The notes under the pieces: model-generated
Told to the model about the DNA's origin: nothing
Databases searched by the model: none
Seen by the model: the letters and a program-made list of their open reading frames with translations, nothing else
Assembly (NCBI GenBank): GCA_964016885.1
Contig: OZ024747.1
Coordinates: 48,360,001 to 48,424,000, forward strand
DNA length: 64,000 nucleotides
Direction of reading: 5' to 3'
DNA from: Eledone cirrhosa
Taxonomy: Eukaryota
Shown: positions 6,860-59,510 of the stretch, piece by piece
Layout: each line of letters opens with the position of its first letter
How positions within the stretch are numbered: position 1 is the stretch's first letter
Made by a program: the position numbers and the translations under genes

Positions 6860-6928
<69 letters not shown>

Positions 6929-6929
<1 letters not shown>

Positions 6930-7379
6930 GATATTAAACAAATGGAAACTATATTTATAAAACCATATTTATTTCATTATACATATTTCAGGGATACCAT
7001 ATTAAAAATATGGCATGCCTTCGTCAGATAAAATACAATATATAAACAGTTTTATAAATAATTTTGACGTACCATATTATAAGCGACCATTATATTAGGA
7101 AGCTCTCTGGATAGACAGCTTCCTAATATAATGGTCGCTTATAATATGGTACGTCAAAATTATTTATAAAACTGTTTATATATTGTATTTTATCTGACGA
7201 AGGCATGCCATATTTTTAATATGGTATCCCTGAAATATGTATAATGAAATAAATATGGTTTTATAAATATAGTTTCCATTTGTTTAATATCGTATATCTA
7301 CTCCAAAAACTTGTCGAGTGCTTTATATCAGTTATAAAATATTTACTTGTTGTAACCCAACAATTTTAAATAAAACTTT

Positions 7380-7382
<3 letters not shown>
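6929..7382 (+). mobile_element. (TA)n-embedded palindromic HHR element, family A (Penelope-pLTR/retrozyme-like)
   Basis: ~176-bp matching inverted arms centred at 7110/7111 plus a unique 3' tail 7298-7382; homologous to 47789-48237. Confidence 0.85.
7186..7251 (+). ncRNA. Type I hammerhead ribozyme (mirror copy on minus strand 6970-7035)
   Basis: Stem I TATTTTAT/ATGAAATA; CTGACGA 7194-7200; stem II AGG.C.ATGCCATA/TATGGTAT.C.CCT; GAAA 7232-7235; short stem III; AUA cleavage after 7243. Confidence 0.85.
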
Positions 7383-7449
<67 letters not shown>

Positions 7450-13311: not shown

Positions 13312-13345
13312 GGTCTCTACACTCTCCTTTGGCTCTGCCGCCCAC

Positions 13346-16300
13346 ATGGATGTGTTAAGAGTAGGATGTTTGAATGCACGTGGCCTGGGCTCAACTTGGA
13401 AGCAAGCAAAGCTTCTAAATGACCTCAGGTCATGTAGTATAAATGTAATGGTTATCTGTGAGACTCGAATCAGCGTCGTGCGGCAGCTGGCCCCCACCTT
13501 CGATGACTTTGAGGTGCATGCATCTCTCTGTCAACCTGGAGGTGGGGGTGGGGTTGTCGTACTGCTGCAAAAACACCTGGGTCTTGCCGTACAGGTTGTG
13601 CACTCGGACCCGGAGGGTCGTTTGTTGGTGCTAGACGTTGGCAGTAGTGAAAGTGCGGCCTTGAGACTGGTCGCCGTCTACTCCCCTTTCGGAGCTGAAC
13701 GGCCCGACTTCTTCCAGCGTTTGGAGACTTTTCTGGGAACGTCGCGTTCCCTGCTTCTAGCGGGGGATTGGAATGACATCCTGGATGCACGTTGGGACTA
13801 TGCAGGAGCATGTCCTAATAGAGGGGGGTGTAACAGCCTCAAGGGGTTACTCGACCGTTTTAACTTGGTCGATAGATATCGACTAGATTTTCCAACTGTG
13901 CCAACCTGGACTTGGAGAAACCACAGTGGTCAATCTAGATCGTACTTAGATAGATTCTTAGTTAGAAGTAAGGATAGGGACATATTAAGCTGTCCAGAAA
14001 TGCGCACGGTTGGCTACACGGATCACAAATTAGTGACCTGCGTGGTGAATCTCGAGAAAACACATAGACAGGGTCCCGGTTACTGGAAACTTAATTTGTC
14101 TTTACCGGCAAAAGAGACTTACAGAAACCGGATTAGCAGATTAGTTAAGGAGAGGTTGACGGGTGCAATCGTCAACAACCGATGGTGGGCATCTCTCAAA
14201 AGAGAGATTAGAACAGAATCAATAAATTATAGCAAGATGTTAGCTGCCGATAGGAATAGAAACGAGAAAGAATTAACAGGTAAATTAGAAGAGGCAATCA
14301 AGAGCGAAGATGTGGCCAGAGTGCTGGCATCGAGGACGGCCTTGAACCAGTTTTTCGATGCAAAGCACGAAGGCTGCGTCATTCGAAGTAAAATACGTGC
14401 TCTAGGTAATGAGGGGGCCAAAGCCGTTGGATGGGCCCGCGTGACAGAAGCTAAGAGTGGAAATCGATCCACCATCCGGTCGTTGCAAGACGAAGATGGA
14501 CGGGTGATCCGGGAGCCTAAGCAGATGTGCGAGGCCTTTCAAAGGCACTTTGCCCGATTGTTCGGGGGAGGCGAGGGTCCGGGCGGGGGCGTGGATTTCG
14601 GTCCATACCTCGACGGCCTGCCGCGTCTCTCGTGCGAAGAGTCAGAGTCCTGCGAGGGACCAATCTCGGCTGATGAGATCGGAGATGCGCTGAGCCAATG
14701 CAGCAGACGCAAATCTCCAGGTCTTGATGGTATACCTTACGAATGCCGGTCTTCTTCTCCGAACTCCTCGAAGCGGTCTACTGCAATTGGCAGCAGAACG
14801 GGAGAATTCCTTGTTCTGTAGCCAAAGGCGTAGTCACGCTGGTGAGGAAGGACGAGAACAAGGGGGATAGTATAAATAATTTTCGGCCCATAACCCTGCT
14901 AAACACAGAGTTAAAGATTTTGGCCAAGGTGTTAGCAAAGAGGTTGGCGCTTGTCGTGGGTGGCCTGGTGGGAGATGCGCAGACATGTGCTATCCCATCC
15001 AGGTCCATTCACGATAACCTCCACCTCATGCGAGACATCATAGAGAGGGTTGGCAACAAACCCGGCTTCGGTGGGGCCCTGATCAACTTGGATCAGTCTA
15101 AGGCCTTCGATAGGGTCGACCATGGTTACCTGGATGCGGTGCTAGCGGCGGCTGGGTTCGGTCCTGTTTTCAGAGGCTGGATAACTGCCTTACATAGCAA
15201 CCACATCTGTTCTAGGATCAAGGTGAACGGCTACCTTTCGAAGCCGTTCGAAATCACACGATCCATTTGACAGGGGTGCCCTCTCTCCTCCCTTCTGTAC
15301 GTATTGACTCTCGAGCCTTTACTGAGGAATTTGGAGTTGTTGCAGGGTATTCCCCTGGAACCAGGATTGAGCAAAGCGGTGTCGGCCTACGCCGATGACG
15401 TAACGGTAATGGTATCGACCGACTCGGAGATCGAGGCGATCGGTACCTTACTGGAGGAGTACGAAAGGTTGTCAGGAGCGAAACTGAACCGGGAAAAATC
15501 CATCGGGCTGCAACTCGGAACGTGGAGAGGCAGACCGATGCCTCCTGACGGTGTTGTCGAACACTGGACGGAGGACCCGGTAAAGTTGCTTGGGGTCTGG
15601 TTTGGACCGGACCTCCAGGTGGAAAAGAACTGGAACGAGGTTACGAACAAGGTGTTTGCACTAACCCAGAAATGGGCCAAGTGTAAGCTGTCCCTAAAAG
15701 GCCGGGCGGAGGTGGCGAACATTTACATAGCGTCCGTCACTTACTACCGCCTGACTGTCGTGCCTTGCCCTAAGGAAACACTCACCACCATGGAACGCAT
15801 GCTCTTCCAATTTCTTTGGAAGAAGCGCCCTCCTATGGTGAGAAGATCCATCTGCTGCCAACAACCTTCGAAAGGAGGGCTGGGGATGCCGTGGTTGATG
15901 ATGCGTAGGCACGCATTAAGGCTACGGCACCTACAGGTATTCCTCACTGGTCAACCGGTGTGGGCTCCGTTCGTGAAACGAGCCTTTCCGAGACTCGTCT
16001 CGCTCACCGAGCTACAGTCCTGGGTCAAGCAAAGATCCGGAAAACTGGGAGACTGGCACACTGAGTGTGCTCAGGCGCTCAGGGCTCTCTGGCAAGCGGG
16101 CCAGGCCATCGGTGGAGAATCCACCTCATCATTCTATAGAGGGCTGGTGGCTAGCAGGGGCGATGACACCCTTGGAGAGTCGCTGGACATGGAAGAAGAC
16201 GAACTGGCCAGCCTGTTCGGTAGGACTTTCGGCCCAGGACCAATGGACAACTTCCAGAAGTCACTGGCCTGGCAGTGCTACCGGGGGGCTCTACCCGTTC

Positions 16301-16770
16301 GAGAGAGGCTCTACAGACACGGGCGCCCGGGCAGGGATCCCTCAAAAAAGATTTGCCCTAGATGCGTGCGTCACGAAGAAAGCGTTGCGCACGCATTGGT
16401 GCAATGTCCGGGCGTGGCTGATCTGTGGGGCTACGCCGAACGACTGCTGTCGCGGGTGGCGCCGATTAAATTGACCGCGGAGTCCGTGATGACAATCAAA
16501 CCGCCTCCCCTCTTCACAAAGGAAGCAAAGGCGGTTTTTCTGTGCGTAATAGCCATGTTGAAAGAGGTTGTTTGGTGGACACGATTGAAAGGTCTGAGGT
16601 CAGGCAACTTCCTCTCTGGCCATAGTCTGGTCTACTTCTTCCGATATCACTTCGGAAGAAGGATAAGAATGGAGAGAGAGGTGCTTGGCCGCAGGCAGTT
16701 TTATGAAAGGTGGGTGATAGTGGCGAGAATGGCTCGTGTAAATGGGCCTTCTCTGTATACCATCCTGTAG
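13346..16770 (+). pseudogene. Tx1-like ORF2 (APE-RT-zf), one frameshift and one nonsense codon
   Basis: LNARGL, ICETR, AGDWN, SYLDRF, TDHK (APE); FRPITLLN, LDQSKAFDRV, SI*QGCP (TGA 15268-15270, probably from CGA), AYADD; CPRC...HALVQC; frameshift near 14743. Confidence 0.92.
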
Positions 16771-18742: not shown

Positions 18743-21700
18743 AACGAATACCATAAAGCATTCCATAACGAATACCATAAAGCATTCCGTAACGAATACC
18801 ATAAAGCATTCCATAACGAATACCATAAAGCATTCCGTAACGAATACCATAAAGCATTCCATAACGAATACCATAAAGCATTCCATAACGAATACCATAA
18901 TGCATTCCATAACGAATACCATAAAGCATTCCGTAACGAATACCATAAAGCATTCCATAACGAATACCATAATGCATTCCATAACGAATACCATAAAGCA
19001 TTCCGTAACGAATACCATAATGCATTCCATAACGAATACCATAAAGCATTCCGTAACGAATACCATAAAGCATTCCATAACGAATACCATAATGCATTCC
19101 ATAACGAATACCATAAAGCATTCCGTAACGAATACCATAAAGCATTCCATAACGAATACCATAATGCATTCCATAACGAATACCATAAAGCATTCTGTAA
19201 CGAATACCATAAAGCATTCCATAACGAATACCATAAAGCATTCCATAACGAATACCATAAAGCATTCCATAACGAATACCATAATGCATTCCATAACGAA
19301 TACCATAATGCATTCCATAACGAATACCATAATGCATTCCATAACGAATACCATAATGCATTCCATAACGAATACCATAAAGCATTCCATAACGAATACC
19401 ATAAAGCATTCCATAACGAATACCATAATGCATTCCATAACGAATACCATAATGCATTCCATAACGAATACCATAAAGCATTCCATAACAAATACCATAA
19501 AGCATTCCATAACGAATACCATAATGCATTCCATAACGAATACCATAAAGCATTCCATAACGAATACCATAATGCATTCCATAACGAATACCATAATGCA
19601 TTCCATAACGAATACCATAATGCATTCCATAACGAATACCATAAAGCATTCCATAACGAATACCATAAAGCATTCCATAACGAATACCATAATGCATTCC
19701 ATAACGAATACCATAATGCATTCCATAACGAATACCATAAAGTATTCCATAACGAATACCATAATGCATTCCATAACGAATACCATAATGCATTCCATAA
19801 CGAATACCATAATGCATTCCATAACGAATACCATAAAGCATTCCATAACGAATACCATAATGCATTCCATAACGAATACCATAATGCATTCCATAACGAA
19901 TACCATAAAGCATTCCATAACGAATACCATAATGCATTCCATAACGAATACCATAATGCATTCCATAACGAATACCATAAAGCATTCCATAACGAATACC
20001 ATAAAGCATTCCATAACGAATACCATAATGCATTCCATAACGAATACCATAATGCATTCCATAACGAATACCATAAAGTATTCCATAACGAATACCATAA
20101 TGCATTCCATAACGAATACCATAATGCATTCCATAACGAATACCATAATGCATTCCATAACGAATACCATAAAGCATTCCATAACGAATACCATAATGCA
20201 TTCCATAACGAATACCATAATGCATTCCATAACGAATACCATAAAGCATTCCATAACGAATACCATAATGCATTCCATAACGAATACCATAAAGCATTCC
20301 ATAACGAATACCATAATGCATTCCATAACGAATACCATAAAGCATTCCATAACGAATACCATAAAGCATTCCATAACGAATACCATAATGCATTCCATAA
20401 CGAATACCATAATGCATTCCATAACGAATACCATAAAGCATTCCATAACGAATACCATAAAGCATTCCATAACGAATACCATAATGCATTCCATAACGAA
20501 TACCATAAAGTATTCCATAACGAATACCATAAAGCATTCCATAACGAATACCATAAAGTATTCCATAACGAATACCATAAAACATTCCATAACGAATACC
20601 ATAAAGTATTCCATAACGAATACCATAAAGTATTCCGTAACGAATACCATAATGCATTCCGTAACGAATACCATAAAGTATTCCATAACGAATACCATAA
20701 AGCATTCCATAACGAATACCATAAAGTATTCCGTAACGAATACCATAAAGTATTCCGTAACGAATACCATAAAGTATTCCGTAACGAATACCATAAAGCA
20801 TTCCATAACGAATACCATAAAGTATTCCATAACGAATACCATAAAGTATTCCATAACGAATACCATAAAGTATTCCGTAACGAATACCATAAAGTATTCC
20901 GTAACGAATACCATAAAGTATTCCATAACGAATACCATAAAGTATTCCGTAACGAATACCATAAAGTATTCCATAACGAATACCATAAAGCATTCCATAA
21001 CGAATACCATAAAGCATTCCGTAACGAATACCATAAAGTATTCCGTAACGAATACCATAAAGCATTCCGTAACGAATACCATAAAGTATTCCATAACGAA
21101 TACCATAAAGTATTCCGTAACGAATACCATAAAGTATTCCATAACGAATACCATAAAGCATTCCGTAACGAATACCATAAAACATTCCGCAACGAATACC
21201 ATAAAACATTCCGTAACGAATACCATAAAGCATTCCGTAACGAATACCATAAAGCATTCCATAACGAATACCATAAAGCATTCCGTAACGAATACCATAA
21301 AGCATTCCATAACGAATACCATAAAGCATTCCGTAACGAATACCATAAAGCATTCCATAACGAATACCATAAAGCATTCCATAACGAATACCATAAAACA
21401 TTCCGCAACGAATACCATAAAACATTCCGTAACGAATACCATAAAGCATTCGGCAACGAATACCATAAAGCATTCCGTAACGAATACCATAAAGCATTCC
21501 GTAACGAATACCATAAAACATTCCGCAACGAATACCATAAAGCATTCCGTAACGAATACCATAAAGCATTCCGCAACGAATACCATAAAGCATTCCGTAA
21601 CGAATACCATAAAGCATTCCGTAACGAATACCATAAAGCATTCCGTAACGAATACCATAAAGCATTCTGTAACGAATACCATAAAGCATTCCGCAATGAA

Positions 21701-22212
21701 TACCATAAAGCATTCCGTAACGAATACCATAAAGCATTCCGTAACGAATACCATAAAGCATTCCATAACGAATACCATAAAGCATTCCGTAACGAATACC
21801 ATAAAGCATTCCATAACGAATACCATAAAGCATTCCGTAACGAATACCATAATGCATTCCATAACGAATACCATAAAGCATTCCGCAACGAATACCATAA
21901 AGCATTCCGTAACGAATACCATAAAGCATTCCGTAACGAATACCATAAAGCATTCCGTAACGAATACCATAAAGCATTCCGTAACGAATACCATAAAGCA
22001 TTCCGCAACGAATACCATAAAGCATTCCATAACGAATACCATAAAGCATTCCATAACGAATACCATAAAGCATTCCGCAACGAATACCATAAAACATTCC
22101 ATAACGAATACCATAAAGCATTCCGTAACGAATACCATAAAGTATTCCATAACGAATACCATAATGCATTCCATAACGAATACCATAAAACATTCCGCAA
22201 CGAATACCATAA
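18743..22212. repeat. 24-bp satellite (AACGAATACCATAAAGCATTCCAT), ~145 copies, expanded inside a SINE
   Basis: Constant 24-bp period; flanks 18660-18742 and 22213-22252 are the two halves of a minus-strand SINE. Confidence 0.95.
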
Positions 22213-22739
22213 ACCATTCGATGTTCTAACGACTCTGCCAATTCACCACCTTAAGAGATTTTAGTACAAAGTACTTAATAGAATTTTCTGAGTTTAGTTA
22301 GAGCATTAAGATCAAAAGCTAATTTAGTAATTGTAGACCGTCTTTACAATTCTATCTTAGGTTGTAATAATTTTGCAGACGATATATTCCCGTATATACT
22401 TACAAACACACATGTTGCTGCAGAGGGTGATACTGGTAATGATGATAAAGAAGATGCTATTGCTGTTGCTGTCGTTTGTAATGTTAACTTTTACATTTAC
22501 ATTGGTATATGTACAGCTGTTGCATCTGCTCTGTATGTATGTATGTATGTATGTATGTATGTATGTATGTATGTATGTATGTATGTATGTATGTATGTAT
22601 GTACATAGACACATATACACATACACGCGCACACACACACACACACATAAAGAGGTTGACTTAAGAAGCACTGGGAAAATTTGAAATGTGTGCTTTCCTA
22701 CGCACATATTTATATACACACACACCCATACACACTCAT

Positions 22740-46899: not shown

Positions 46900-47144
46900 C
46901 TAAAATGAAATTTTTGACATATATAGCTGTTATAATATATCTGGCATGGTCAGAGACTAAATCCTAAAGGCCAACTCGTTGATTAGCCCCAGGCCAGCCC
47001 CGAATCGAACGAGCAGACCCAGGAACAAAGGCATTCCAGTCCAACCACGACTACCACTTTTAGTGTATGTAAAACTACATTTAAATGGTGCAAAGATAAT
47101 GACGGTTTCTAACTGACAACTTTGAGTAATATATCTCATAATCC

Positions 47145-47330
47145 TAATAACTGTTTCTACTTTTGGCACAAGGCCAGTAATTACCCAGTACATTACTGGT
47201 ACTTTATTTTATCGACCCCGTAAGGATGAAAGGCAAAGTGAACCTCGGCGAGATTTGAACTCAGACCGTAAAGGGACGTAACTATGCATCAAAGCATGGC
47301 GCCCGACTCTCTACCGATATTGCCAATCCT
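47145..47330 (-). mobile_element. Major SINE copy
   Basis: Consensus match. Confidence 0.85.
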
Positions 47331-47788
47331 AATAACATGTGACAAAGATGGACATATGAATTATAGGTATAGTTCATCTGGCAGATGTCCATACAATTAC
47401 CGTCTACTCAATTTCAGTCTTAAGACAAGGTTGACCTCAGCAGGATAAGAATTCAGAAAGAGCCAGAATAAATACCATAAAGCATTCTATCCGTCGTTCT
47501 AACGACTCTGCCAAATCGCCGCCGCCAGTTTTGTTTGAAGGAAAGACAAAGGCCGATATATCTTGGCACTAATCAGGTGTTTCCTTTCAAATGTAAAGAT
47601 ATAGCAAGGCATTGTGTCCTACGTCCTAACAATTCCGTCAACTCCACACAATACACTGGTTCCTTATTGATCAACCCCGAAAGGGTGAAAGCAAACTTGA
47701 AATCAGACTGTAGAGAGCTAGAAGAAACAACGCAAAACGTTTTTTCAATGCTCTAATGATTCTGCGAGAATATATATATATTTATATA

Positions 47789-48237
47789 CGATATTAATAA
47801 ATGGAAACTATATTTATAAAACCATATTTATTTCATTATATATATTTCAGGGATACCAAATTAAATTATGGTATGCCTTCATCAGACAAAATACAATATA
47901 TAACAGTTTTACAAATAAGCGTTGACGTACCCTATTAAAATACAACCATTGTTTTTGGAAGTAATCCGGATTACTTCCAAAAACAATGGTTGTATTTTAA
48001 TAGGGTACGTCAACGCTTATTTGTAAAACTGTTATATATTGTATTTTGTCTGATGAAGGCATACCATAATTTAATTTGGTATCCCTGAAATATATATAAT
48101 GAAATAAATATGGTTTTATAAATATAGTTTCCATTTATTAATATCGTATATCTACTCCAAATACTTGTCGAGTGCTTTATATCAGTTATAAAAATATTTA
48201 CTTGTTGTATCCCAACAATTTTAAATAGAACTTTTGC
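47789..48237 (+). mobile_element. Palindromic HHR element, family A (second copy)
   Basis: Spacer-less palindrome centred at tcc|gga 47967/47968, arms ~179 bp, 3' tail matches 7298-7382. Confidence 0.9.
48042..48106 (+). ncRNA. Type I hammerhead ribozyme (mirror copy on minus strand 47829-47893)
   Basis: TATTTTGT-CTGATGA-AGG.C.ATACCA...TGGTAT.C.CCT-GAAA-TATATA-TA-ATGAAATA. Confidence 0.85.
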
Positions 48238-48438
48238 ATATATATTTATATATATATATTGAGGCTAGTTTGCATAATTGCAAACGAATAGAATGTTATT
48301 ATTAATATTCGAAAAACTCAGATTACATTTATTGTATTCAGCCATGTAGAGCGAAAAAAGTTTTCTTTTTTATTTGAATTTGGCAAAGCCGGCCATTTAT
48401 CGCTCGTATACAGGAAACTGACTGGCCAGTCTGCTGAT

Positions 48439-48512
48439 ATGCAAATCTGGCTGATCAGTGGATCTGCTAATATGCAGATCTGACTGATCAGTCAGTTTGC
48501 TAATATGCAAAT
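48439..48512 (+). promoter_or_regulatory. Octamer cluster (ATGCAAAT x2, ATGCAGAT x1), putative snRNA-type enhancer
   Basis: Positions 48439, 48472 and 48505 at 33-bp spacing; function inferred only. Confidence 0.5.
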
Positions 48513-48588
48513 CAGGCCGATCAGTCACTGTGTAGGTTTGAAATTAGCATATATTTTCACTAGCTCTGACAGTTGGCAGGTGAACAGT

Positions 48589-48638
48589 GAGCTGTACTGA
48601 TGAAGGGTGATACCCAGAAACATTAGTGTCTGCAGTTC
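48589..48638 (+). ncRNA. Type I hammerhead ribozyme
   Basis: GAGCTGTA-CTGATGA-A GGGT GAT ACCC A-GAAA-CA TTAG TG-TC-TGCAGTTC; GUC site after 48630; first stem II pair is A.A. Confidence 0.8.
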
Positions 48639-48805
48639 TGTTTACATGCCAACACAAGAGCAAGAATGGAGAGTTCCTTCTACTGACATGGCTATAAAAT
48701 TGAGGCTAGTTTGCATAATTGCAAACGAATCGAATGTTATTATTAATATTCGAAAAACTCAGATTACATTTATTGTATTCAGCCATGTAGAGCGAAAAAA
48801 GTTTT

Positions 48806-48878
<73 letters not shown>

Positions 48879-54989: not shown

Positions 54990-56892
54990 CGTTGTTGACC
55001 AAACAATATCTCCCTCAAAACTAGAATCAGAATAATATTCCAGTCTCGAGGCATGGATACATTGAAGCTCCGACGTCTGGTAACTGACTTGGTAGACACC
55101 CGCAAAATTATTAACCACCTTCCCAACAACGAGCCTGAGCACCTCTTTGAATTCCACATGTCTAAACCCGTGAACATGCTTACAAAGTCAGAAAACATTA
55201 CAGCTCCCATAACTTTTGGAAACATATTTACACGCTCAGAGTTGCTGAAGCATAGAACAAACTACCTGCATCAGTTGTTAGCTGTTGAGACAATGCATCC
55301 CTCAAAACTTCCATAGAACAAACTACCTGCATCAGTTGTTAGCTGTCGGGACACTGCATCCCTCAAAACTTCCATAGAACAAACTACCTGCATCAGTTGT
55401 TAGCTGTCGAGACAATGCATCCCTCAAAACTTCTATAGAACAAACTACCTGCATCAGTTGTTAGCTGTCGGGGCACTGCATCCCTCAAAACTTCCATAGA
55501 ACAAACTACCTGCATCAGTTGTTAGCTGTCGGGACACTGCATCCTTCAAAACTTCCATAGAACAAACTACCTGCATCAGTTGTTAGCTGTCGAGACACTG
55601 CATCCTTCAAAACTTCCATAGAACAAACTACCTGCATCAGTTGTTAGCTGTCGGAACACTGCATCCTTTAAAACTTCCATAGAACAAACTACCTGCATCA
55701 GTTGTTAGCTGTCGGGACACTACATCCTTCAAAACTTTCATAGAACAAACTACCTGCATCAGTTGTTAGCTGTCGGGACACTGCATCCTTCAACACTTCC
55801 ATAGAACAAACTACCTGCATCAGTTGTTAGCTGTCGAGACAATGCATCCCTCAAAACTTCTATAGAACAAACTACCTGCATCAGTTGTTAGCTGTCGGGA
55901 CACTGCATCCTTCAAAACTTCCATAGAACAAACTACCTGCATCAGTTGTTAGCTGTCGGGACACTGCATCCTTTAAAACTTCCATAGAACAAACTACCTG
56001 CATCAGTTGTTAGCTGTCGGGACACTGCATCCTTCAAAAGATCCATAGAACAAACTACCTGCATCAGTTGTTAGCTGTCGGGACACTGCATCCTTCAAAA
56101 CTTCCATAGAACAAACTACCTGCATCAGTTGTTAGCTGTCGGGACACTACATCCTTCAAAACTTCCATAGAACAAACTACCTGCATCAGTTGTTAGCTGT
56201 CGGGACACTGCATCCTTCAAAACTTCCATAGAACAAACTACCTGCATCAGTTGTTAGCTGTCGGGACACTACATCCTTCAAAACTTCCATAGAACAAACT
56301 ACCTGCATCAGTTGTTAGCTGTCGGGACACTGCATCCTTCAAAACTTCCATAGAACAAACTACCTGCATCAGTTGTTAGCTGTCGGGACACTACATCCTT
56401 CAAAACTTCCATAGAACAAACTACCTGCATCAGTTGTTAGCTGTCGGGACACTGCATCCTTCAACACTTCCATAGAACAAACTACCTGCATCAGTTGTTA
56501 GCTGTCGAGACACTGCATCCTTCAAAACTTCCATAGAACAAACTACCTGCATCAGTTGTTAGCTGTCGGGACACTGCATCCTTCAACACTTCCATAGAAC
56601 AAACTACCTTCATCAGTTGTTAGCTGTCGAGACGCTGCATCCTTCAAAACGTCCATAGAACAAACTACCTGCATCAGTTGTTAGCTGTCGAGACGCTGCA
56701 TCCTTCAAAACGTCCATGCTTCCCGAAATTCGCGAACACTACACCTGATATTCCGCCTCCATACACACAAAGGCATGCATTTGTGTGTACATCATGACTC
56801 ATACATTGTTCACTTTACTGACATTTGTACAGGCACCTTTGATGAGTTGTAGTGCATCTGAGCATTGTAAACAATAATTTTCATTATTATTT
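54990..56892 (+). mobile_element. CR1-like LINE 3' end containing a tandem expansion
   Basis: TLKLRRLVTDLVDTRKII...LFEF / RVAEA*NKLPASVVSCRDTASFK-like terminus; tail ending aataattttcattattatt. Confidence 0.7.
55251..56714. repeat. 61-bp tandem repeat, ~24 copies
   Basis: catagaacaaactacctgcatcagttgttagctgtcgggacactgcatccttcaaaacttc. Confidence 0.95.
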
Positions 56893-57327: not shown

Positions 57328-57391
57328 TAGTAGTAGTAACAGTGGCAGTACAAATATAGACGTTGTAAGAGGGGTTAAGGGTCATTGAAGC

Positions 57392-59510
57392 TGTTACAGT
57401 AACTGTTACAGTTACTGTAACAGTAACTGTAACAGTTACTGTTATACTTACAGTTACTGTTACAGTTACTGTTACAGTTACTGTAACAGTAACTGTAACA
57501 GTAACAGTTACTGTTATACTTACAGTTACTGTTACAATTACTGTTACAGTTACTGTAACTGTAACAGTAACTGTAAGTATAACAGTTACTGTTACAGTAA
57601 CTGTAACAGTAACTGTAACAGTAACTGTTATAGTTACTGTAACTGTAACAGTTACTGTTACAGTAACTGTAACAGTTACTGTTACAGTTACTGTAACTGT
57701 AACAGTTACTGTTACAGTAACTGTAACAGTTACTGTTATACTTACAGTTACTGTTACAGTAACTGTAACAGTAACTGTAACAGTAACTGTAACAGTAACT
57801 GTAACAGTAACTGTAACAGTTACTGTAACAGTAACTGTTACAGTAACTGTAACAGTAACTGTAACAGTAACTGTAACAGTTACTGTAACAGTAACTGTAA
57901 CAGTTACTGTTACAGTAACTGTAACAGTTACTGTAACTGTAACAGTTACTGTTATACTTACAGTTACTGTTACAGTTACTGTAACTGTAACAGTTACTGT
58001 TACAGTTACTGTTACAGTAACTGTTACAGTTACAGTAACTGTAACAGTAATTGTAACAGTAACTGTAAGTATAACAGTAACTGTTACAGTTACTGTTACA
58101 GTAACTGTTACAGTTACTGTAACTGTAACAGTTACTGTTACAGTAACTGTAACAGTAACTGTTACAGTTACTGTTACAGTTACAGTAACTGTAACAGTAA
58201 CAGTAACAGTAACTGTAACAGTAACTGTAACAGTAACTGTAACAGTAACTGTAACAGTTACTGTAACAGTAACTGTTACAGTTACTGTAACTGTAACAGT
58301 TACTGTTACAGTAACTGTAACAGTTACTGTTACAGTTACTGTTACAGTTACTGTTACAGTTACTGTTACAGTTACTGTAACAGTAACTGTAACAGTTACT
58401 GTTACAGTAACTGTAACAGTAACTGTAACAATAACTGTAACAGTTACTGTAACAGTAACTGTTACAGTAACTGTAACAGTAACTGTAACAGTAACTGTAA
58501 CAGTTACTGTAACAGTAACTGTAACAGTTACTGTTACAGTAACTGTAACAGTTACTGTTATACTTACAGTTACTGTTACAGTTACTGTAACTGTAACAGT
58601 TACTGTTACAGTTACTGTTACAGTAACTGTTACAGTTACAGTAACTGTAACAGTAATTGTAACAGTAACTGTAAGTATAACAGTAACTGTTACAGTTACT
58701 GTTACAGTAACTGTTACTGTTACAGTTACTGTTACTGTTACTGTTACAGTTACTGTAACAGTAACAGTAACTGTAACAGTAACTGTTACAGTTACTGTTA
58801 CAGTTACAGTAACTGTAACAGTAACAGTAACAGTAACTGTAACAGTAACTGTAACAGTAACTGTAACAGTAACTGTAACAGTTACTGTAACAGTAACTGT
58901 TACAGTTACTGTTACAGTAACTGTAACAGTAACTGTAACAGTAACTGTAACAGTAACTGTTACAGTTACTGTAACTGTAACAGTTACTGTTACAGTAACT
59001 GTAACAGTTACTGTTATACTTACAGTTACTGTTACAGTAACTGTAACAGTAACTGTAACAATAACTGTAACAGTTACTGTAACAGTAACTGTTACAGTAA
59101 CTGTAACAGTAACTGTAACAGTAACTGTAACAGTTACTGTAACAGTAACTGTAACAGTTACTGTTACAGTAACTGTAACAGTTACTGTAACTGTAACAGT
59201 TACTGTTATACTTACAGTTACTGTTACAGTTACTGTAACTGTAACAGTTACTGTTACAGTTACTGTTACAGTAACTGTTACTGTTACAGTTACTGTTACT
59301 GTTACTGTTACAGTTACTGTAACTGTAACAGTAACTGTGACAGTTACTGTTACAGTTACTGTTACTGTTACAGTTACTGTAACAGTAACTGTTACAGTTA
59401 CAGTAACTGTAACAGTTACTGTTACAGTAACTGTAACAGTAACAGTAACAGTAACAGTAACTGTAACAGTAACTGTTACAGTTATAGTTACTGTTCCTGT
59501 TACTGTTACT
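57392..59510. repeat. Self-complementary hexamer satellite (GTWACW)n, ~2.1 kb
   Basis: Mixture of gtaact/gttaca/gttact/gtaaca; same consensus on both strands. Confidence 0.95.

What the first reader, a model, noticed from the sequence alone, without database searches (positions are those of the whole stretch)
48258..48814. Family E: terminally redundant 441-bp unit with a GUC hammerhead and triple octamer repeats
Seen: a ~115-bp direct repeat at both ends, an internal HHR whose stem I can extend (GTGAACAG/CTGTTTAC), and insertion beside family A in the same TA tract. Inference: a permuted ~1.26-mer, as expected from copying a circular RNA.
Basis: partly seen in the sequence, partly recalled or inferred. 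Interest (0 to 1): 0.7.

Follow-up and report, generated by a model that had tools for sequence, protein, structure and literature searches.

The report
Penelope-spread hammerhead repeat with built-in promoter
This is one old copy of a protein-free jumping repeat present in well over a thousand copies; its ends match the way Penelope-type retrotransposons likely paste DNA, its three short repeats resemble the host's small-RNA gene promoters, and its copies often stop where the predicted self-cutting RNA would cut.

Summary
The 116-bp direct repeat, 441-bp unit, GUC hammerhead and shared TA tract are real. The element is one of more than 1,300 dispersed, ORF-less copies, about 5% decayed. The copies are not random circular permutations. 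Their 3' ends sit at two sites about 36-41 bp apart in (TA)n, their 5' ends vary, and most insertions are tail-out inversions with one short and one long end (45 of 60). That is the Penelope-like (PLE) signature, so the terminal repeat is a partial tandem. A circular RNA is neither shown nor excluded, and this single-ribozyme copy cannot make one. The scan already noted PLE ends and U6-type promoters in sister families here.

The parts
48258..48814 (+). Family E insertion: 1.26 units of a 441-bp unit (u1 = 48258), single arm, 5'-truncated at u1, 3' end at the long site u116, flanked by (TA)n on both sides
48258..48373 (+). Upstream partial repeat (pseudo-LTR-like), u1-116; shares the private u10 A allele with the downstream repeat
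48417..48525 (+). Three near-palindromic 33-bp modules (octamer + GATCAGT), which can also fold as a 109-nt hairpin; module number varies (1 and 2 in the two units of L124)
48505..48512 (+). Proximal octamer ATGCAAAT, placed like the host U6 element at -76 to -78 (promoter role inferred)
48521..48525 (+). TCAGT box, placed like the host U1/U2 element at -56 to -58 (role inferred, noticed post hoc)
48550..48554 (+). TATA-like box, 45 nt after the octamer start (U6: 46-50)
48578..48583 (+). Predicted transcription start (u321-326), at the 5' strand of hammerhead stem I; no 5'-end pile-up here
48575..48650 (+). Type I hammerhead: core 48597-48603 and 48617-48620, A.A at the base of stem II, self-complementary stem III, predicted cut 48630|48631
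48631..48647 (+). u374-390: zone where family 5' ends pile up, with a sharp edge at the predicted cut site
48699..48814 (+). Downstream repeat, u1-116; holds the short 3' site (u75/80 = 48773/48778), the 36-41 bp tail and the long 3' site (u99-116), which overlaps a T4-C-T6 run
48238..48259 (.). TA tract shared with the long arm of family A
48812..48876 (.). (TA)32 tract at the 3' junction

Best explanation
This is a decayed copy of a high-copy, ORF-less hammerhead repeat with Penelope-type insertion ends, likely copied in trans by a Penelope-like retrotransposon and likely transcribed from its own snRNA-type promoter. Shown: the family, two fixed 3' sites a tail apart, variable and inverted 5' ends, (TA)n targets, promoter-like boxes at host U6/U1/U2 spacing, and a pile-up of 5' ends at the predicted cut site. 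Inferred: transcription starts near u321-326 and reads on through more than one unit of a source locus. A slow hammerhead cuts part of the RNA at u373|374. A PLE protein nicks (TA)n on both strands and starts reverse transcription inside the RNA at u75/80 on one strand and u99-116 on the other. The enzyme falls off at cut 5' ends in about a quarter of cases and otherwise runs on through uncut multimers or religated circles. Running past one full unit gives the partial tandem seen here and, in the longest copies, restores a promoter in front of two ribozymes.
For: 3' ends: 41 at u75, 30 at u80, 27 at u116 among 194 arms of 106 insertions. Of 60 tail-out inversions, 45 have one short and one long end (45 of 48 classifiable, p=7e-11); the replicate gives 21 of 39 (21 of 22 classifiable). 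(TA)>=4 lies at 123 of 150 and 87 of 95 3' junctions. PMC8557442 (passages) lists 5' truncation, partial tandems, inverted 5' copies, a 30-40 bp tail and (TA)n bias as PLE features. PMC11167929 (parts 1-2 of 4) shows two internal RT start sites a tail apart and extension of both strands in vitro. 5' ends at u371-379: 15 in 749 nt at risk vs 42 in 10,710 in the flanks, p=3e-6, best of 313 windows; replicate 7 in 475, p=0.002. Other TGCA palindromes and the larger hairpin show no pile-up. Promoter: octamer at -76 to -78 in 7 of 12 U6 loci, TATA at -28 to -30 in 12 of 12, TCAGT at -56 to -58 in 27 of 27 U1/U2 loci. Octamer-TATA-core occurs 31,489 times vs 9 in the reversed control, in at least five families among the first 100 rows. 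RT + GIY-YIG ORFs exist in this genome.
Against: No autonomous partner was found: none of 20 PLE 3' regions (about seven families) resembles E beyond shuffles. The pile-up is broad (u372-390), with more ends at u388 (9) than at u374 (7), and in the replicate the best window was u380-388; a stall in stem I could contribute. The core is non-canonical (A.A instead of G10.1-C11.1) and the inactive fold is 6.8 kcal/mol more stable. There is no 5'-end excess at the predicted start (6 in 1,208 nt). A T6 run inside the unit would stop a typical Pol III transcript (terminator rule recalled). The promoter count rests on a few high-copy families that may share ancestry, and the snRNA loci are largely array paralogues.
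Confidence: 0.75

Rival explanations
1. All copies come from rolling reverse transcription of a monomeric circular RNA, with fixed internal priming sites.
For: 126 of 178 arms cross the cut site. Tandem repeats within an arm share polymorphic alleles more than chance, 68-85% vs 40-73%, permutation p<=0.001 at five columns. There are no fixed 5'-vs-3' repeat differences in 275 columns. 36 of 41 two-core arms extend upstream of the predicted start while long source arrays are almost absent. Circles are shown for coral, mussel and axolotl retrozymes (PMC7229834, parts 2-4 of 6).
Against: 9 of 52 repeat pairs differ G/T at u415 vs 1.5% background, p=7e-8. Several differ at linked sites, and L124 has units with different module numbers. 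The pile-up at the cut site needs linear 5' ends. Lengths are capped near two units.
Confidence: 0.2
2. Templates were only linear read-through transcripts of tandem source arrays that have since been lost; no circle was involved.
For: Sister families keep arrays of 30 consecutive units. Adjacent units of an array would be similar but not identical, as observed. Unprocessed RNA is the main PLE substrate in vitro (PMC11167929).
Against: No E array was found: the 31 two-motif loci reach at most 810 bp and 1 of 419 arms exceeds two units, although the assembly resolves other arrays. The array search was exact-match only.
Confidence: 0.35
3. The unit is the 3' UTR/pseudo-LTR of an autonomous PLE and these are merely its truncated ends.
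For: Same end anatomy as autonomous PLEs; preprint 10.64898/2026.07.22.740005 (part 1 and passages) derives retrozymes from PLE pLTRs.
Against: Long arms cycle back into the unit instead of entering an ORF. The longest ATG ORF in the unit is 32 aa. In 50 GIY-YIG loci E appears only in two, apart from the ORF ends.
Confidence: 0.06
4. The 5'-end pile-up is a structural stall or a fold-back artefact, and the ribozyme is dead.
For: The pile-up covers the whole 3' strand of stem I and peaks at two short palindromes, TGCA at u374 and CATG at u388. The core is non-canonical.
Against: Three other TGCA sites give 3 ends in 1,604 nt at risk, CATG at u430 gives 6 in 1,488, and the 109-nt hairpin region stays at background. 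The excess stops abruptly at u372-374, with 4 ends in u360-371 vs 52 in u372-390.
Confidence: 0.25

Closest known systems
Metazoan non-LTR retrozymes (Cervera & de la Pena 2020, PMC7229834, parts 2-4 of 6 read; Li, Clavereau & Pollet 2026, 10.64898/2026.07.22.740005, part 1 and passages)
   Same: ORF-less, low-GC unit in the 150-450 bp range, with a type I hammerhead, highly self-paired RNA, no PBS/PPT, co-existing with PLEs.
   Different: Almost no arrays of two or more full units; dispersed sub-dimer insertions with PLE tails and inversions; A.A at the base of stem II; internal snRNA-type boxes; circular RNA not shown.
Penelope-like elements and their non-autonomous derivatives (PMC8557442, passages; PMC11167929, parts 1-2 of 4; PMC4209133, passages)
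   Same: 5' truncation, partial tandems, inverted 5' copy, 30-40 bp tail, (TA)n targets, type I hammerhead with a self-complementary helix III.
   Different: No ORF; no 3' similarity to any sampled autonomous family. Genomic 5' ends pile up at the hammerhead site, whereas PMC11167929 found no RNA-seq reads ending there for PAc.
Newt satellite 2 and Schistosoma hammerhead satellites (seen only as citations in PMC2220036 and PMC6765202; the primary paper PMC308520 was not held)
   Same: Repeat unit that carries its own promoter (snRNA-type Pol II in newt, Pol III in schistosome) upstream of a hammerhead, so that a tandem is needed to propagate.
   Different: Here the boxes match both the host U6 geometry and the U1/U2 TCAGT box, the module is triplicated, and the family is dispersed rather than satellite-like.

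Membership tests
Metazoan non-LTR retrozyme | Type I hammerhead in each unit | tested here: met
   Core and three stems present and the family majority; non-canonical A.A at 10.1/11.1; no Rfam hit
Metazoan non-LTR retrozyme | Non-coding unit of about 150-450 bp, no LTR/PBS/PPT | tested here: met
   441 bp; longest ATG ORF 32 aa; no fixed 5' end. PBS/PPT not searched separately
Metazoan non-LTR retrozyme | Tandem repeats with at least two consecutive ribozyme-bearing units | tested here: inconclusive
   41 arms hold two cores, but only 1 of 419 arms reaches two full units; this copy has one ribozyme
Metazoan non-LTR retrozyme | Self-cleavage in vitro | not testable with these tools
   Only an indirect genomic footprint
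Metazoan non-LTR retrozyme | Expressed as a circular RNA | not testable with these tools
   Needs RNA data that resolve ends or RNase R resistance
Non-autonomous Penelope-like element | 5' truncation and partial tandems (pLTR) | tested here: met
Non-autonomous Penelope-like element | Inverted 5'-truncated copy at the 5' end | tested here: met
   60 of 106 and 39 of 72 insertions are two-arm tail-out inversions
Non-autonomous Penelope-like element | 30-40 bp tail at one end (two RT start sites) | tested here: met
   u75/80 vs u99-116; 45 of 60 and 21 of 39 pairs short+long
Non-autonomous Penelope-like element | Microsatellite/AT-rich target bias | tested here: met
   123 of 150; 87 of 95
Non-autonomous Penelope-like element | 3' similarity to an autonomous PLE partner | tested here: inconclusive
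   None in 20 3' regions and 50 GIY-YIG loci out of 150 scored of 10,595 candidates
LTR element / LTR retrozyme / MITE | Fixed 5' and 3' ends with terminal repeats of constant length | tested here: not met
   5' ends spread over the whole unit; repeat length varies from none to about 370 bp
U6-type (type 3) snRNA promoter | Upstream element and TATA at host U6 spacing | tested here: met
   Octamer to TATA 45 nt in E, 43-45 in three sisters, 46-50 in host U6
U6-type (type 3) snRNA promoter | Drives transcription from the predicted start | not testable with these tools
   Needs 5' RACE or a reporter; no 5'-end excess at u316-326

The most novel reading that the evidence does not exclude
The genomic copies are a fossil record of the whole cycle. 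A hybrid snRNA promoter (U6 octamer/TATA plus the U1/U2 TCAGT box, triplicated) fires at the start of hammerhead stem I. The non-canonical A.A hammerhead cuts the template in vivo, leaving the 5'-end pile-up that was not seen in RNA-seq for an autonomous PLE. Religated circles let the PLE enzyme run past the start site and rebuild the upstream promoter, which would explain why such elements need a circle or a tandem at all.
Probability: 0.3. Interest if true: 0.72.

Novelty: new variant of a known kind. Interest (0 to 1): 0.48.

Why it matters
The papers read here propose, but do not show, that PLEs mobilise animal retrozymes. They leave open how retrozymes are transcribed and whether PLE-type hammerheads cut their templates in vivo. 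This family gives countable genomic evidence on all three questions: PLE ends, promoter boxes at host snRNA spacing, and 5' ends at the cut site. It also gives exact predictions (start u321-326, cut u373|374, RT starts u75/80 and u99-116) that are simple to test. The element class itself is known and this copy is old, so the gain is mechanistic rather than a new kind of system.

Tried and rejected
Rfam: no hit at gathering score in the window; only hairpin-type chance hits at E<=10. RNA evidence: no RNA holder listed. The five listed runs are of unrecorded kind and were laid as contigs; they show nothing on expression, strand, ends or circularity. One contig of run X5 (depth 644) carries a mutated core, but the run kind is unknown. 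Pfam PF26215 is not in the library, so PF01541 was used. Partner search: no similarity to 20 PLE 3' regions. Covariation: copies decay roughly evenly (about 5% non-majority), so there is no useful covariation. The u386/387 variants keep stem pairing but may partly be CpG decay, so they are not counted as support. TSD: not discernible in (TA)n. The low folding z-score (-11) partly follows from near-palindromic modules; the 240-nt part without them still gives z=-6.3. An absolute length ceiling below two units was rejected because of L124. A Pol III-terminated short transcript as the only template was rejected because most arms run upstream through the T6 run. Segmental duplicates were dropped (L012, L038, L098, L195, L196; also L330, L351) but not. 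Literature searches that found no description of this family or of a U6-type retrozyme promoter. The library lacks most subscription papers; PMC308520 was not held; no supplements or repeat databases were seen, and these may already list the family.

Full report
Observation. Positions are given in unit coordinates, u1 = 48258. The 116-nt direct repeat (99%, spacing 441) is there. So are three 33-bp repeats, with two exact octamers and one variant. The base of stem II is A.A, and this is the family majority. PMC4209133 (passages) calls G10.1-C11.1 highly conserved, while PMC7229834 reports an axolotl ribozyme with U.U there that still cuts slowly. The inactive fold is 6.8 kcal/mol more stable, and stem III is self-complementary, so a dimer fold is possible. 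Rfam finds no hammerhead. Family A's long arm ends in the TA tract where E begins.

Family. Exact motif counts are 1,304, 1,930 and 321 against zero controls, which are lower bounds. Copies carry about 5% non-majority letters, so the family is old. The unit has no ORF above 32 aa.

Ends. I mapped 194 arms in 106 insertions from the first motif hits on contig C1 (119 loci) and 120 arms in 72 further loci as a replicate. 3' ends cluster at u75/80 and u99-116 (164 of 194 in u66-119), also in the hammerhead-anchored subset (25 of 30), and mostly run into (TA)n (123 of 150; 87 of 95). 5' ends are spread. Sixty of 106 and 39 of 72 insertions are tail-out inversions, and 45 of 60 and 21 of 39 of these pair a short with a long end. 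These are the PLE features listed in PMC8557442 and explained in PMC11167929 by two internal RT start sites and extension of both strands. The window copy is a single arm from the long site that stopped after 557 nt. Its terminal repeat is therefore a partial tandem, not an LTR and not a random permutation.

Footprint at the cut site. Among 145 arms with a canonical 3' end in motif-anchored loci, 5' ends per nucleotide at risk are 0.020 at u371-379 against 0.004 in the flanks (p=3e-6, window chosen from ribozyme geometry, best of 313). The replicate gives 0.015 vs 0.003 (p=0.002) but a stronger peak at u386-390. Pooled, 52 of 178 arms that reach u390 stop in u372-390, 4 stop in u360-371, and 126 cross the site. 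Other TGCA and CATG palindromes and the larger hairpin show no such excess. Self-cleavage of part of the templates is the simplest reading, but a stall in stem I is not excluded. My searches found no report of such a footprint, and PMC11167929 failed to find reads ending at the site for PAc.

Circle or not. All 31 loci with two exact motifs at unit spacing were examined, and none exceeds 810 bp. One of 419 distinct arms in 265 loci passes two units (L124), although the assembly resolves other arrays. Tandem repeats in one arm share polymorphic alleles more than chance, there are no fixed upstream/downstream differences, and this copy's 1% allele at u10 is in both repeats. Yet 9 of 52 pairs differ at u415, far above the 1.5% background and far below the 49% of random pairing. 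So templates were partly homogeneous (a circle or a uniform array) and partly mixed (multimers or template switches). A single monomer circle cannot explain everything. This copy, with one ribozyme, could not release a monomer.

The octamers. Host U6 loci carry ATGC(A/T)AAT at -76 to -78 (7 of 12) and TATA at -28 to -30 (12 of 12). Host U1/U2 loci carry TCAGT at -56 to -58 (27 of 27; largely array paralogues). In E the last module has the octamer at u248, TCAGT at u264 and TATA at u293. All three point to a start at u321-326, the 5' strand of stem I. Octamer-TATA-core occurs 31,489 times genome-wide against 9 in the control, in at least five families; three sister families examined lack the TCAGT box. 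The one-module unit of L124 keeps an octamer upstream of its ribozyme. Against a plain Pol III reading, a T6 run lies inside the unit and most arms run through it, and 5' ends do not pile up at the predicted start. Of 41 two-core arms, 36 begin upstream of the predicted start and 13 reach the octamer. Copying past one unit can thus rebuild a promoter in front of two ribozymes (inference). Newt satellite 2 is the precedent, seen here only as a citation.

Partner. RT + GIY-YIG ORFs of up to 938 aa are present (a 1,096-aa ORF hit RVT_1 only). None of 20 3' regions resembles E, so the partner is unidentified.

Earlier notes. I reached the promoter reading. Notes read report the same for sister families of this genome. 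They are unchecked AI notes and are not counted as support.

Verdict. A retrozyme-like, non-autonomous PLE family: a variant of a known kind that lacks arrays, has a triplicated promoter-like module and leaves a countable footprint at its predicted cleavage site. Circular RNA, cleavage and promoter activity are untested. Interest 0.48.

Noticed in passing
window 47128-47330; L021, L044, L045, L060, L065, L094, L098, L113, L119, L120, L122, L129, L131, L136: A tRNA-type SINE (class recalled) inserts again and again at u40/41 of family E, always in the same orientation and with variable target duplications: 19 of 22 interrupted-arm rows (some duplicates) resume at u41. It looks like an (ATT)n target hot spot.
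   Followed up: partly
window 47784-48240 and 6910-7404: Family A is also a tail-out inverted hammerhead element: a perfect 184-bp palindrome, one arm about 90 bp longer, TA at both ends.
   Followed up: partly
window 32013, 32467, 32933, 25435; L273, L287-L298: Sister hammerhead families with the same octamer-TATA spacing; the 466-bp and about 484-bp ones form young tandem arrays (30 consecutive units listed).
   Followed up: partly
L213, L214, L216, L222, L223 3' UTRs: An autonomous PLE family has two CCAAT boxes and a TATA upstream of a hammerhead with U.U at the base of stem II; base mismatches at this position recur in several families here.
   Followed up: no
L210:4009-6822, L211:1788-4319, L212:975-4262: Long open ORFs (938, 844 and 1,096 aa) at GIY-YIG hits, possible recently active PLEs.
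   Followed up: no
L257-L268, L230-L256: Host snRNA promoters are unusual: an octamer-like box at -76 in U6 and TCAGT at -57 plus TATA-like runs in U1/U2.
   Followed up: partly
window 13313-16770: Broken LINE with APE, RT and zf-RVT matches.
   Followed up: no
window 18743-22219, 55251-56717, 57391-59482: Minisatellite arrays of 24, 61 and 12 bp; a 24-bp-like unit also appears at about 47466-47490.
   Followed up: no
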